Origin: Octopus vulgaris
Taxonomy: Eukaryota
NCBI GenBank assembly: GCA_951406725.2
Contig: OX597820.1
Location: forward strand, 68,076,001-68,140,000
Length of the DNA: 64,000 nucleotides
Direction of reading: 5' to 3'
Notes under the pieces: model-generated
Database searches by the model: none
The model's input: the letters and a program-made list of their open reading frames with translations, nothing else
What the model was told of the DNA's origin: nothing
Shown here: one piece after another, positions 3,705-51,124 of the stretch
How positions within the stretch are numbered: the stretch's first letter is position 1
Layout: each line of letters opens with the position of its first letter
Program-made: the position numbers and the translations under genes

Positions 3705-4260
3705 CGTTTGTATCTGTGTTTGCTCCCCAACTGCCGCTTGACAATTGGCTCTGGTGTGTTTATGTACCCGTGGCGGTTCGGCCAAAGAGACCGATAGAGT
3801 TAAGTACCAGGCTAAAAAAGTAAGTTCTGGGTTCAAATTCATTCGAGTAAAAGATCTTCAAGGCGGTATCCAAGTACGGTTGCAGCCTAATGACTGAAAC
3901 AAGTAAAAGATAAACGATAATAGATACTAAATAGAGAAATATATATTGGGTTGTCAAATAAATTCGTTCGTAGTTCCCCGCCACCCATTTACTAACTCTT
4001 TCTAATGTTATTTAAATTAAGACGGGAAATGATTTATCGAAGTGTTTTATGCAATTTTTTCTTGTGGCTTTATACTTTTTCTTCAAGTCTTGTCTATCGT
4101 TTTTGAAATTTGAATACATTTTAAACTTTTTACCGACATGTGAAGATAGAGAAAATAATAGAAAAAAAAACAAACAAAAATAAACATAAACGAACGATTT
4201 TATCTGACAACAAAATAGATACTGAGTTTTACACACTATTTTGAAGAGAAATACTAAGTA

Positions 4261-9274: not shown

Positions 9275-9313
9275 TTGTCCGACGAACGGGAACGTGAAAC
9301 TTTGAGTAACAGT
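9275..9313 (+). ncRNA. Minimal type-I hammerhead ribozyme motif (family F3, U4C core)
   Basis: TTGT-CCGACGA-ACG-GGAA-CGT-GAAA-CTT-T-GAG-TA-ACAG: core, GNRA-capped stem II, short stem III, GUA triplet and stem I. Confidence 0.7.
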
Positions 9314-9340
9314 TTTTGTGATATCTTTGTACCTTTAATA

Positions 9341-12419: not shown

Positions 12420-13260
12420 AAGATGGATATGTATTTATGTTTGTCGATATGCAGTTTTTCAAGAATGCAGAGTGTGAAACTACAAACCTCAGATAAGTAA
12501 TAAATGCTCCGTCCCGTGTTCGCTATGTGATGTTAGGAAAGTTTCCTTCGTTATAGAGTCTCCAGATGAAGTGAGACATAGACGGGGAATTTTCTGTGAA
12601 AGATTGCATGTGTCGTGTAAATCTTCCCTTGAAAGCATTGGCTGCTGTACCTGTGTAGTGTCTCATGATACCATCGGAATGCGTAAGAGTGGCTCTTTTG
12701 ATCACAGATTTTGAGATGAAAGGTCCTCCCGGAGGGCAGGTATTAGTTGTCGGGTGGTATGGGCTGAGGGCTGCATGTGCGCGCATTGGTTTCTGTTGTA
12801 GCATACACTGTTGGAAGTGATATTATCTAAATACGAGTAGTCAATTTGAACGTTTGCCCAGTGATGAGCTTATGATGTCCATGGATTCTTGGGAAATGTT
12901 GTTTAATTAGCCATTGGAAGCTTCTAGATATATTGGCAGGAATCTTTTACATCGAATAGAGGATTAAATCATATTACTGTTCTTATTTTAATCATCTCCA
13001 AGTTTGAAGTGGGATTGGGATACAAATACGCTAATCTGTCAATAATGCCACTCCTCGCTACTGTCTCTCTATAAGAGAGTGTGACGCTTTTGAAGATCTC
13101 TCTGTCCGCCGATGGATCGGAGATTCTTGTACTTGTGCCTGAGACTAGGTTTCAGCTACAGTTGGGGGCGGTAGCAGTTTATAGTGACAAAAGGTTCCTT
13201 CGCTAAGCTTTCTTTAGCATTAGTACTTGCCTGACTCGAGATTTAAGTTGATTCCAAGGA
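12420..13260 (-). mobile_element. Degenerate Penelope-like retroelement (Neptune-type) RT C-terminus plus GIY-YIG endonuclease remnant
   Basis: On the - strand: KIRTVI*FNPLF (IIWFNPPF motif, 12955-12989), CPPGG...VIKRA...YTGTAANAFKGRFTRHMQSF...MSHFIWRL (ORF 12523-12804) and TLCILEKLHI (CxLCLxEKL, about 12445-12478). The 5' boundary is uncertain. Confidence 0.85.
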
Positions 13261-38080: not shown

Positions 38081-38911
38081 ACGCGCGTGCGAGTTTGTGT
38101 GTGTGTGAGCGCGTATGTGTGTGTGAGTTTGTGTATATGTATACAAAAATTATGAGTCAAGACACAGTATTTCATTTTGCGAGCAGAACATACTATCAAA
38201 CGTATTAAAGATTTACAAGTCAATATCTTGCCTTATATTTGAGTTAGCAGTGCAAAGTGCTCATTTTTATGTTTACCTCTTCAGACTTTCTATACATGTC
38301 AGAGCCAATAGTGAAAGTTATAATGTTTCCTATGCATATAGGTTTATGTAAATAATGCGATCGAAGACAGAAAAAAAATAGGCAACGTGTGTATATTCAT
38401 ATTTTACGAATCATTGCTCTTTCATCAGTACCACATACAACCCATCAACTATCCACGAACGCATTGCTTAAATATCCGCAAATTTTATTAGCGGTATGAC
38501 ACTATGGATAAACCAATTTACATATTAAACACATTCCTGGCAGTTGCTAGATAAATATTAATTACTAGCATGGATACAGTATTTCGTTTTACAACAATAA
38601 TATATTACCAAGTACTACAAGTCAATACTGTACCTTACTGACGTCAGACCCAATACGTGGAACTATGGGCAAGTGTCTTCTGCTATAGCCTCGGGTCGAC
38701 TATAACATTGCTAGTGAATTTGGTAGACAGCAACTGGAAGAATTCCGTCGTGTGTGTGTATATATATATATAACAAAATTAAAAGCGGATGACAGATTTT
38801 TGTAGGTCAAGTTCTTTTATCATGGGAATACAAAATACATAAAAAATTCATCGTGATATTAGTTTTCAAGCGCTCCAATATTACAATCCAAAGAAAAGCA
38901 GTATTGCAAAA

Positions 38912-38990
38912 CCTTACGATCGTTTCGAAGAATCCGTTTGTATTGGGCGAGATTTCCAGCCGATGCAAATAGTCACATTTCTCTCATCAT
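38912..38990 (-). ncRNA. Hammerhead motif with long stem-II insert, 5'-truncated (family F7)
   Basis: Reverse complement (A)TGATGA-GAGAA-[~50 nt hairpin]-TTCTTC-GAAA-CGATCG-TA-AGG. Confidence 0.55.
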
Positions 38991-39061
38991 ATACATATAC
39001 ATACATACATACATACATACATACATACATACATACATACATACATACATAGATACATATA

Positions 39062-41498
39062 TATTAATTTTCAGCAATCACACTGATACTATCCACAATA
39101 TTGTAGTGGAGAAAACCCTACTCTCTGATCATGACATGGTTCTCTGTGATCTGAGATTTCACTGGCCAAAATGCAAAACAAATGTCATCCCTCCTGTTCA
39201 TCCATTTGACACTATGGATTTCCACAATGCAAACTGGGAAGCGATCAATAATGATCTTGCACAAGTCGATTGGTCCTTCACGCACACATACACACCCACT
39301 AACATCAAAAAGTCCTGGCAGTCATTTGTAGACACCATTACGAACATATGTGCAAAACACACCCCATTAAGATCTGCAAACAAATTTAAGTGTCGAATCC
39401 CTAGAAATAGAAAATCTCTCATCAGGAAAATTAAAAGAACTAACAAAAAAATCAACAAGCTGAAATACTGTCAACAGCAACACACCAACCTGACTGCCAT
39501 CTCGTCGCTAGAGATTAAAAAACATAAACTCCAAAACAACATGATGTCTATCATCAATAGTCAGCAAAGAGCTGAAGAGGCCTGGGCCATTGAGAAGATC
39601 AAACTCAATCCCAAAGTGTTCTTTTCATTTGCAAAAAAACACAGAGTCACTGGTTCTACTATTGGCCCTCTGATTGATGAAAATGGTACTCTTCAAGACA
39701 ATGCCAAAACCATGGGAGAGATATTGCAGAAACAATATTGCTCTGTTTTCAGCAATCCTGATATGTCTGATCTGGGCTGTATCAGTGATGTTACTCCCCA
39801 ATACACTTTATCGGACATAACCTTTGGCGCTCCTGGTGTCATAGCAGCAATAAAGGAAATGAAGCATAATTCAGCAGTAGGTCCCGATAGGTTCCCTGCT
39901 TGTGTCTTGAAGATGTGTCAAAACCAACTTGCCCCCCTCTAGCCAATCTGTGGCGGAACTCACTGGATGCTGGATATATACCAGAAGACCTTCTATCCCA
40001 GTCTGTTGTCCCAGTTTTCAAAAAAGGAAACAAATCGCTTGCCGTGAATTACCGTCCAATCTCACTCACCTCTCATATCATTAAGGTATTTGAGAGAGTG
40101 CTGAGATCGCGTATGACTCACTTCCTTGAGAGTCATAATATGCTGAACTCCAACCAGCATGGATTCCGTAATGGAAGCGATTGCCTGACGCAGCTACTGC
40201 ATCATTTTGATGACATTTTGAGAGCCTTGGGAGAGGGTTCCAACACTGATGTCATCTACCTTGATTTCAGCAAGGCCTTTGACAGGGTTGATCATAAGAT
40301 CTTTTTGAGAAAGCTGTCCAATATTGGTGTCACTGGAAAGCTGCTGCAGTGGATCAAGTGCTTCCTGTCTAACAGAACCCAACATGTTGTAGTCGAGGGA
40401 GTCAAATCCAGCCCAGCCAAAGTCAGCAGTGGTGTCCCACAAGGCACTGTGTTGGGCCCACTTCTCTTCATCATCTACATAAATGATATTACTGACACCA
40501 TCAAACACAGTAACATCAGAACCTTCGCTGATGATTCCAAGCTCCAGAAGGTCATCAATGGCGTGGATGACCGAATAAGCCTTCAGTCAGACCTACTGGC
40601 TGTTGTCCAATGGGCGGAAAAGAACAACATGTTGCTAAACGAAGACAAATTCGAACTGATCCACTTTGGAAGGGAGGATGCTCTGAAACTCCCATACTCC
40701 CTTCCTTCTGGAGAAATTCTCATGGCGTCCAATAACATCAGAGACTTGGGAGTAACAGTGGACAACAACATAAGCTGGGCTACACATATAAGCAGCAAAG
40801 TTGATATGGCCCGCAGAATGTGTTCCTGGATTCTCAGAACCTTCCAGTCGAGAGATTCCCACACTATTATCCTTCTCTTCTCCACTTTTGCCCGACCCCA
40901 CCTTGAATACTGCTGTCCACTGTGGTCTTCCTACACAAAACAAAATATTATGAGAATTGAAGCTCCCCAAAGGTCAATCACAAAAAAGATAGATGGCATG
41001 TCAGACCTTGACTACTGGGGTTGACTAGAGAAGCTGAAACTGTATTCACTCCAACGACACCGTGAACGCTACATTATCTGCATGATGTGGAAAATATTCC
41101 ATCAGCACTGTCCGAATGATGTTGGCATCACCTTCAAAATACATCCAAGGCTTGGACCACGTGACATCCGTTCACAACAAAAATCTAAATCGCATCACAT
41201 AACGACAATACGGCACAATTATTTCACCTCAATTGGACCCGCTCTCTTCAACATTACACCAGGACACGTCAAAACAGAAACTGACCACACAACATTCAAG
41301 AAGTCTTTGGACAAATTCCTTCAAACAGTCCCAGACAAACCACCCACACCCGGATATGTCTCCGCAAACAATAACTCTCTGCTCGAATGGGCCTCAGTGC
41401 CCAAATCCTGAATTGAAAGACTTCGCCAGGTGATGCTATTAAGTTAGACATGGCCTTGGCCAATACTGGCCAAAACCTTTCTAAGTTATTCTAAGTTA
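39062..41498 (+). mobile_element. 5'-truncated CR1-group (Crack/Daphne/CR1-like) LINE with nearly intact ORF2
   Basis: End of an APE endonuclease (LSDHDMV) and RT motifs GPD, NYRPISLTS, QHGFR, YLDFSKAFD, GVPQGTVLGP, FADD, RDLGV and RPHLEY. One -1 frameshift near 39935 and one CGA>TGA stop at 41022. 3' tail (TTCTAAGTTA)2. Confidence 0.95.
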
Positions 41499-46674: not shown

Positions 46675-46677
<3 letters not shown>

Positions 46678-46892
46678 CGGAGTAAACACATAAATGTGAA
46701 ACAAGATGGAAAAAAGAGTACTCAAATACCAGTGGTAGAGTAATATGCTTTATTTAAAGCAGCAGAAAATTCAACAAAACCTGTTACTCTGAGTTTCCCG
46801 TTGCCCGATGAACGGCAACTGTCCGATGAACGGCAACGGGAAACTCAGAGTAACAGGTTTTGTTGAATTTTCTGCTGCTTTAAATAAAGTAT
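46675..46892. mobile_element. Penelope-type inverted pLTR structure with hammerhead (46819-46855, family F3)
   Basis: Inverted arms from 46748 to 46889; CTGT-CCGATGA-ACG-GCAA-CGG-GAAA-CTC-A-GAG-TA-ACAG; one arm has a ~70-bp extension; located in (TA)n. Confidence 0.8.
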
Positions 46893-50641: not shown

Positions 50642-50715
<74 letters not shown>

Positions 50716-50941
50716 CTTTATTTAAAAGCAGCAGAAAATTCAACAAAACCTGTTACTCTGAGTTTCACGTTCCCGTTCGTCGGACAGTTAGCAAAAACTG
50801 TCCGACGAACGGGAACGTGAAACTCAGAGTAACAGGTTTTGTTGAATTTTCTGCTGCTTTTAAATAAAGCATATTACTCTACCACTGGTATTGACTACTC
50901 TTTTTTCCACCTTGTTTCACATTTATGTGTTTACTCCGGTA
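50716..50941. mobile_element. Penelope-type inverted pLTR structure: perfect 74-bp inverted repeat with two complete hammerheads (family F3)
   Basis: Arms 50716-50789 and 50796-50869 with a 6-nt spacer. Each reads CTGT-CCGACGA-ACG-GGAA-CGT-GAAA-CTC-A-GAG-TA-ACAG. The right arm is extended to 50941. Confidence 0.88.
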
Positions 50942-51089
50942 TATATATATATATATATCTGACAAGTTAAAAAGGTGACTTATTCGCAATTAGAACCTAA
51001 GGTCAAAATTAATAGAGGTCACAAAAGTGACAGAGGGGACCGACTAGCACTGCTTTTGCTAAAAATAAGAGTTAAAACAGCACAAAAAG

Positions 51090-51124
<35 letters not shown>

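What the first reader, a model, noticed from the sequence alone, without database searches (positions are those of the whole stretch)
50716..50941. Perfect 74-bp palindrome of two back-to-back complete hammerheads with an asymmetric tail
Seen: two identical ribozyme motifs point outward from a 6-nt spacer, so transcription in either direction contains one ribozyme plus its full antisense. One arm stops at AATAAAG while the other continues about 70 bp. Known: inverted truncated pLTRs with a one-sided extension are typical of Penelope insertions. Inference: this is a very recent insertion. Its RNA could fold either as an active ribozyme or as a 74-bp dsRNA that silences it and could be an ADAR or Dicer substrate, which is relevant in heavily A-to-I-editing cephalopods.
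Basis: partly seen in the sequence, partly recalled or inferred. Interest (0 to 1): 0.75.

Follow-up and report, generated by a model that had tools for sequence, protein, structure and literature searches.

The report
Double-primed Hydra-clade Penelope mini-palindrome
This mirror-image sequence is real but ordinary: it is one of more than 1,300 near-identical stubs of a Penelope-type jumping gene in this genome, likely built at each landing site by copying the start of one RNA onto both cut ends of the DNA, and its two small self-cutting RNA motifs are predicted to stay locked in a hairpin.

Summary
In detail: perfect 74-bp arms (50716-50789, 50796-50869), a 6-nt spacer and a 70-nt tail, inside (TA)n. 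It is not rare: 1,373 loci carry back-to-back hammerhead cores at most 30 bp apart, and another lies 4 kb away. The parent is a Hydra-clade Penelope-like element (711-aa ORF). The head-to-head layout with a one-sided tail is published. Family data sharpen the mechanism. 50 of 50 inverted pairs have one tailed and one tail-less arm. Arms share subfamily variants in 25 of 29 pairs. 47 loci join an inverted arm to the tail alone. 36 of 131 arm 5' ends stop within 6 nt, just upstream of the ribozyme, and there is no excess at the cleavage site. Best reading (inferred): both ends of the break prime reverse transcription at two internal sites on one uncleaved RNA and run off its 5' end. The scan reached the same reading on other genomes.

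The parts
50716..50789 (-). Tail-less inverted arm: 3' end of the pLTR, ending at the G after AATAAA (first, upstream terminus of the family)
   Evidence: perfect 74 bp; this end is one of two discrete 3' termini of the family
50750..50787 (-). Minimal type I hammerhead motif, U4C core, mirror copy
   Evidence: mirror of 50798-50835
50790..50795 (+). Spacer AGCAAA: family sequence just upstream of stem I, belonging to the tailed arm; T at 50789 fits both arms (1-nt microhomology)
   Evidence: same letters precede stem I in full-length copies
50796..50869 (+). Duplicated part of the tailed arm
50798..50835 (+). Minimal type I hammerhead motif (core CCGACGA 50802-50808, stem II 50809-50818, stem III ACTC-A-GAGT, predicted cleavage after 50831)
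   Evidence: same layout as the Hydra-2_aMil row of File S2 of PMC8557442
50863..50868 (+). AATAAA hexamer directly before the tail-less terminus (possible poly(A) signal; inferred)
   Evidence: sequence
50870..50939 (+). 70-nt tail; in tandem elements it is 5' UTR, ending 67 nt before the ORF's ATG
   Evidence: L080: tail ends near 3801, ATG at 3869
50668..50715 (.). (TA)n target, left side, preceded by (TACA)n
50940..50958 (.). (TA)n target, right side; no target-site duplication can be read
46677..46889 (-). Second palindromic copy of the same family (58-bp perfect arms, 26-nt centre, tail), different centre and subfamily

Best explanation
The 224-bp insert is a non-coding stub of a Hydra-clade Penelope-like retroelement sitting in (TA)n, likely made in one insertion event in which both ends of the cut target primed reverse transcription on one uncleaved element RNA. 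Shown: the family has two fixed 3' termini, 70-71 nt apart; every inverted pair examined uses one of each; the two arms usually share variants; short arms stop at a sharp limit about 13 nt upstream of hammerhead stem I. Inferred: one cDNA starts at the G after AATAAA and the other at the tail end. The second usually displaces the first from the RNA, giving the duplicated arms; when it stops early, the tail alone is joined to the inverted arm. Both run off the RNA's 5' end, probably a transcription start at CCA(+1)TTCT in the pLTR, so short copies would be copies of the 5' leader rather than random truncations. The two cDNA ends are then trimmed and joined head to head through 0-6 nt of microhomology. 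Predicted: in any read-through transcript the ribozymes are held in a 74-bp hairpin and do not cleave. My odds: identity as a Hydra-clade stub 0.97; double priming on one RNA 0.75; leader run-off 0.55.
For: Parent: the arm is the 3' end and upstream pLTR of elements with a 711-aa ORF carrying RWK, DKT, YRDDG, a CxCX5C linker, CxxC and CxH. Termini: of 131 arms in 72 C1 segments, 62 align to +71 and 57 to +5 (the tail-less end; the alignment runs 5 nt on into TA); 12 end elsewhere. Pairing: 50 of 50 inverted pairs are tailed plus tail-less, none tailed-tailed or bare-bare. Symmetry: among 46 overlapping pairs the tailed arm reaches further in 14, the bare arm in 19, equal in 13. Non-overlapping class: 4 of the 50 pairs, and 47 genome-wide pattern hits, join the inverted arm to the tail alone; 22 of 30 fetched passed a strict test for both standard ends in (TA)n. 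One template: three diagnostic sites agree between arms in 25 of 29 pairs, 0.26 expected if independent. Two length classes: 37 short-short, 8 long-long, 1 mixed. Limit: 36 of 131 5' ends fall in -84..-79 (0.087 per nt at risk) against 0.004 per nt in -150..-91; two solo arms start at -83 directly after (TA)n; genome-wide counts fall from 4,065 (reach -80) to 2,614 (-83) and 1,745 (-87). Uncleaved template: departures from the family sequence at the cleavage site number 117 and 131, against 193 at a control position 5 nt upstream. In vitro precedent: an anole PLE cuts and extends both strands, starts at two internal RNA sites that bound the tail, is predicted to be a dimer, and does not need ribozyme cleavage (PMC11167929).
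Against: No RNA data show the start site: only contigs were available and they cannot show starts. The Inr match is a short, recalled consensus. The pile-up coincides with a self-complementary CTAG that favours joining at -80. The genome-wide counts are confounded by subfamily variants: the drop to 217 at -90 comes largely from a variable position, since long copies such as C1:174443 fail that pattern. Arm concordance could also come from gene conversion after insertion. 4 of 29 pairs are discordant, and one (s5391171) differs at 5 sites plus a gap and may have used two templates. The C1 sample was seeded on an exact 31-mer, so old copies and arms starting downstream of -41 are under-counted. 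31 of 131 arms were unpaired (16 bare, 15 tailed). Strand displacement and joining were not observed.
Confidence: 0.75

Rival explanations
1. Fold-back or self-priming: one cDNA (or an antisense template, as proposed for rotifer Penelopes) snaps back and copies itself, and the endonuclease resolves the end, leaving the tail on one side.
For: Explains shared variants and correlated arm lengths. Proposed in PMC3846280 (passages); endonuclease resolution of the tail is suggested in PMC8557442 (passages).
Against: Fold-back from the tailed strand requires the tailed arm to own the centre, but the bare arm is longer in 19 of 46 pairs, once by about 1 kb. 47 loci have an inversion in which the tailed side is the tail alone, so nothing is duplicated.
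Confidence: 0.1
2. Double priming is right, but the 5' limit is a reverse-transcriptase stop or a joining hot spot (CTAG, hammerhead structure) on a long RNA copied from its 3' pLTR, not the RNA's 5' end.
For: 12 of 131 arms align to exactly -80, the start of the self-complementary CTAG. Raised termination spans the hammerhead region, -78..-40. No start-site data.
Against: A hot spot does not explain why both arms are short or both long (37/8/1). Solo arms with no partner also start at -83. The peak lies on the far side of the structure, after the enzyme would have passed it (inference).
Confidence: 0.25
3. The palindrome is a self-contained mobile unit (MITE-like or retrozyme-like) that is copied whole.
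For: Some centres recur, such as the perfect CTAG centre.
Against: Centres form a continuous series from 20-nt to 2.6-kb arms with the same two outer ends. The two window copies differ in centre and subfamily. Recurrent centres are those expected from joining at CTAG.
Confidence: 0.05
4. One reading: a transcript that switches between an active ribozyme and a silencing dsRNA.
For: A read-through transcript would form a perfect 74-bp duplex. Palindromic repeats and lizard Penelope are heavily edited, and octopus has much near-perfect dsRNA potential (PMC5625713 passages).
Against: Computed hammerhead share about 1e-57 in the insert and about 1e-3 in the isolated arm (secondary-structure energies undervalue ribozyme cores, but not by this margin). 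U4C lowers activity in vitro (PMC3088659 passage). Minimal PLE hammerheads cleave poorly and as dimers (PMC4209133 passages). Nothing marks this copy out from 1,373 similar loci.
Confidence: 0.04
5. Assembly fold-back artefact.
For: This locus could not be checked with reads: none of four DNA-type runs covered the unique left flank.
Against: The spacer and tail are not mirrored. The build recurs at 1,373 loci with varied centres. Opposite-strand joints of the family appear in contigs of all four runs laid.
Confidence: 0.02

Closest known systems
Hydra clade of EN+ Penelope-like elements (PMC8557442: section 11, passages and supplement hits read)
   Same: C-terminal endonuclease, RWK, DKT, CxCX5C, CxxC and CxH motifs, (TA)n targets, a hammerhead with stem III ACTC-N-GAGT and stem I CTGT/ACAG as in Hydra-2_aMil.
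   Different: Not the listed Hydra-1_Obim: that family's hammerhead row differs throughout and its length is 2,507 bp. This unit is about 3.46 kb with a 3' UTR over 1 kb, above the stated 'generally <3 kb'. The tail is 70-71 nt, not 30-40.
General PLE insertion layout: inverted 5'-truncated pLTR, tail at one end (PMC8557442 Fig. 2 legend; PMC3846280 passages; opposite-strand minimal hammerhead pairs 100-700 bp apart in PMC4209133)
   Same: Head-to-head arms, one-sided tail, palindromic junction with microhomology.
   Different: Here both arms are cut down to the last 75-80 nt, so the insert is only pLTR. The tail lies wholly in the 5' UTR, not in the start of the ORF.
PAc Poseidon in vitro system (PMC11167929, parts 1-2 of 4 read)
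   Same: Two internal start sites bounding the tail, AT-rich target, both strands extended, uncleaved RNA used.
   Different: In the parts read, the paper does not derive the inverted repeat from the two sites or discuss leader run-off copies.
L1 twin priming (recalled, no call)
   Same: Both target ends prime one RNA and give an inversion; the 47 tail-only loci have this non-duplicated layout.
   Different: Most copies here duplicate the same stretch in both arms, and both start sites are fixed by the element.
Non-LTR retrozymes (bioRxiv 10.64898/2026.07.22.740005, part 1 of 5 read)
   Same: Non-coding, PLE-derived, type I hammerheads.
   Different: Retrozymes are direct tandem repeats; this is an inverted pair.

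Membership tests
Hydra-clade PLE | Single ORF with RT followed by a C-terminal endonuclease region | tested here: met
   711-aa ORF in L080, stop-to-stop 727 aa also in L084, L089, L093; YRDDG core; endonuclease read by motif. Pfam gave no hit; one of the 120 listed homologues carries PF01541.
Hydra-clade PLE | RWK motif and DKG changed to DKT | tested here: met
   RWK at 37 and DKT at 113 in 3 of 3 copies scanned, and in L080
Hydra-clade PLE | CxCX5C linker; CxxC and CxH near the C-terminus | tested here: met
   CNCKNESSC, CRLC and CRH in L080; the 5'-truncated copies read CNF at the second cysteine
Hydra-clade PLE | (TA)n targets | tested here: met
   TATA follows 47 of the tailed ends and 50 of the bare ends as the single commonest flank
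Hydra-clade PLE | Placement inside the Hydra clade on an RT tree | not tested
   Reference proteins were seen only as supplement text; no tree was built
EN+ PLE insertion layout | Partial tandem forming a pLTR ahead of the ORF; inverted truncated copy; tail at one end | tested here: met
   L080, L084, L088, L092, L093, L094 show pLTR-tail-ORF-pLTR; 50 of 50 inverted pairs have one tail
EN+ PLE insertion layout | Tail of 30-40 bp | tested here: not met
   70-71 nt. A descriptive range, not a strict criterion.
Minimal type I hammerhead | Three stems around CUGANGA / GAAA / UH | tested here: inconclusive
   Layout met; core is CCGACGA (U4C) in this copy and C at position 4 in 31 of 69 typed C1 motifs; all 29 motifs typed in the ORF-bearing loci have CTGATGA
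Minimal type I hammerhead | Short palindromic stem III allowing a dimer | tested here: met
   ACUCAGAGU self-duplex of 8 bp with a central mismatch, -7.4 kcal/mol
Minimal type I hammerhead | Self-cleavage | not testable with these tools
   Needs an in vitro assay
Non-LTR retrozyme | At least two direct tandem units with hammerheads | tested here: not met
   The two motifs are inverted

The most novel reading that the evidence does not exclude
Penelope-like elements build their inverted ends by a fixed two-site rule: one protein dimer primes both ends of a break on a single uncleaved RNA. Most copies of this family are run-off copies of the 5' leader, so the genome itself records the element's transcription start (about 83 nt upstream of the tail-less end) and both reverse-transcription start sites. 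The by-product is thousands of ready-made hairpins that would add to the host's dsRNA load.
Probability: 0.45. Interest if true: 0.5.

Novelty: new member of a known kind. Interest (0 to 1): 0.3.

Why it matters
The single copy matters little. The family is useful because how PLEs form inverted pLTRs and tails is still open (PMC8557442 passages), and these counts separate double priming from fold-back and give exact sites to test. The dsRNA angle is modest: 1,373 loci of about 150 paired bases are roughly 0.2 Mb, or 7e-5 of 2.8 Gb (my arithmetic), against 4.4e-3 of loci with near-perfect dsRNA potential reported for octopus by a different measure (PMC5625713). Longer pairs and sister families would add to this.

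Tried and rejected
Rfam at both thresholds found no hammerhead. Pfam found nothing on the ORF and the PDB sequence search gave 0 hits, so the clade rests on motifs. Sequencing runs: no RNA holder listed. Four DNA-type runs had no depth on the unique left flank, so presence or absence and an artefact at this locus could not be tested. Four runs guessed to be RNA, laid on L080:3030-4500, were contigs and showed no start site, no GT-AG joint and no usable editing signal. The idea that 5' ends mark the ribozyme cleavage site was tested and rejected for this family (117 and 131 against control 193). The -90 count (217) was set aside as confounded by a subfamily variant. A 3' splice site at TTCTAG was considered; arms keep the letters upstream of it, and no spliced copy was noticed in the centres printed. 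Enrichment of tailed-arm ends at +15..+19 (a possible poly(A) cut) did not hold: they spread from +3 to +28 in 30 loci. The first typing script matched nothing because of a wrong spacer length and was rerun. The paper on dimeric PLE hammerhead variants (PMC5785218) is not held; it may already cover U4C cores. Paper searches listed no paper whose title or abstract start derives PLE inverted ends from two-site priming; subscription journals and Repbase were not searched.

Full report
Observation. The window holds a perfect 74-bp inverted repeat at 50716-50789 and 50796-50869 with a 6-nt spacer; the right arm runs on for 70 nt to 50939, and both ends meet (TA)n. Each arm carries a minimal type I hammerhead layout pointing outward, with predicted cleavage after 50831. 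The core is CCGACGA, a U4C variant. Rfam does not detect it. The same build occurs at 46677-46889, and a related lone motif at 9276-9319.

Abundance. A 31-mer of the arm matches 7,981 times in the 2.8-Gb genome, with 0 for the control. A pattern for two cores back to back within 30 bp matches 1,373 loci. The closest other copy among those scored is 99% identical over the 152-nt tailed arm.

Parent element. Pairs of hits 1.5-4 kb apart proved to be longer inverted pairs containing RT and endonuclease sequence. Of 20 loci chosen for the 5' part of that ORF, four hold the full 727-codon frame. L080 shows pLTR, tail, 67 nt, a 711-aa ORF, a 3' UTR of over 1 kb, hammerhead, AATAAA and tail. The protein has RWK, DKT, CxCX5C, CxxC and CxH, the features given for the Hydra clade in section 11 of PMC8557442, and its hammerhead has the layout of the Hydra-2_aMil row in that paper's supplement. 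It is not the listed Hydra-1_Obim, whose hammerhead differs. 932 proteins match at E <= 1e-20 among 7,995 scored, the best at 58% identity. No tree was built.

Family anatomy. I took the first 100 listed 31-mer hits, all on the first 33 Mb of C1, fetched them, merged them into 72 segments and aligned them to L080. Numbering sets 0 at the G after AATAAA. Of 131 arms, 62 end at +71 and 57 at the tail-less end; 12 end elsewhere. Fifty head-to-head pairs were found and all 50 combine one tailed and one bare arm; 31 arms were unpaired. Four pairs do not overlap at all. Among the other 46, the tailed arm reaches further in 14, the bare arm in 19, and 13 are equal; 37 are short-short, 8 long-long and 1 mixed. 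Centres overlap mostly by 0-6 nt. Three diagnostic sites agree between arms in 14 of 17 C1 pairs and 25 of 29 with further loci, against 0.32 and 0.26 expected. A genome-wide pattern finds 47 loci where the inverted arm is joined to the tail alone; 22 of the 30 fetched passed a strict test for both standard ends, and most others differ by a letter or two in the printed flanks.

The 5' limit. 36 of 131 arms begin in -84..-79, a rate of 0.087 per nt at risk, against 0.010 in -90..-85, 0.004 in -150..-91 and about 0.001 beyond. Two solo arms begin at -83 directly after (TA)n. Position -83 is the A of CCATTCT, which fits the initiator consensus as I recall it. Genome-wide counts fall from 4,065 to 2,614 to 1,745 for arms reaching -80, -83 and -87, though subfamily variants contribute; the -90 count is not interpretable. 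There is no excess at the ribozyme cleavage site: 117 and 131 against a control of 193.

Mechanism. PMC11167929 reports that an anole PLE nicks and extends both strands of AT-rich DNA, starts at two internal RNA sites bounding the tail, is predicted to be a dimer, and uses uncleaved RNA. The counts above fit both break ends priming one RNA at the two sites. The strict pairing points to one RNA, the tail-only class to cases where the downstream cDNA stops before the upstream site, and the cliff to the RNA's 5' end. PMC2377424 places the Penelope promoter and start site within the pLTR (passages). These steps are inferred. Fold-back, proposed in PMC3846280, does not account for longer bare arms or the tail-only class. 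In the window copy the tailed arm reaches about -79, the bare arm -72, and they join through one shared T.

Ribozyme and dsRNA. The insert folds into a -137.6 kcal/mol hairpin; forcing the hammerhead gives an ensemble share of about 1e-57, and about 1e-3 in the lone arm. The antisense arm is transcribed first in either direction. Stem III self-pairs as in dimer-type motifs (PMC4209133 passages; PMC6765202 and PMC6155905 passages). U4C is reported to lower activity (PMC3088659 passage); it is present in 31 of 69 typed C1 motifs and 0 of 29 in the ORF-bearing loci, which were selected by likeness to one subfamily. Whether this locus is transcribed or edited is unknown.

Age and artefact. 13 of 39 short pairs have identical arms; pooled divergence is 2.2%, so 0 of 74 is unremarkable. 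The locus itself could not be checked with reads, but opposite-strand joints of the family occur in all four runs laid.

Verdict. A real, ordinary member of a known kind. The layout is in print. The scan's index lists 191 findings in at least 29 genomes under the same words, several with the same reading; a search by sequence found none. What this family adds is counts for a Hydra-clade element, a 70-nt tail in the 5' UTR, and exact sites for a mechanistic test.

Noticed in passing
window 46677-46889: Second palindromic copy of the family, opposite orientation, 58-bp perfect arms; its 26-nt centre contains a short rearranged repeat of the core region.
   Followed up: partly
window 9276-9319: Lone hammerhead of a sister family (stem III ACTTTGAGT), 84% like L080, ending in its own AATAAA-like end before (TA)n.
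   Followed up: partly
window 12505-12741: Minus-strand fragment 33% identical to the endonuclease region of the Hydra ORF.
   Followed up: no
window 38863-41411: Broken non-LTR retrotransposon in three frames; RVT_1 at E 4e-30 in the middle piece.
   Followed up: partly
C1 sample: Hammerhead subfamilies vary together: CTGATGA with an A-A pair closing stem II, CCGATGA with A-G, CCGACGA often with A-U. The U4C forms spread widely, so full catalytic speed may not be needed.
   Followed up: partly
G000:C1, listing: A sister subfamily with AACAAAACTG upstream of stem I forms the same short palindromes with a similar 5' limit.
   Followed up: no
L019, L021, L065, and C1:4678540-4679403: Two or three palindromic copies within a few hundred bases to 3 kb, suggesting repeated insertion into the same (TA)n tracts.
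   Followed up: no
window 50960-51090: The right flank is itself a high-copy repeat in all four runs laid; not identified.
   Followed up: no
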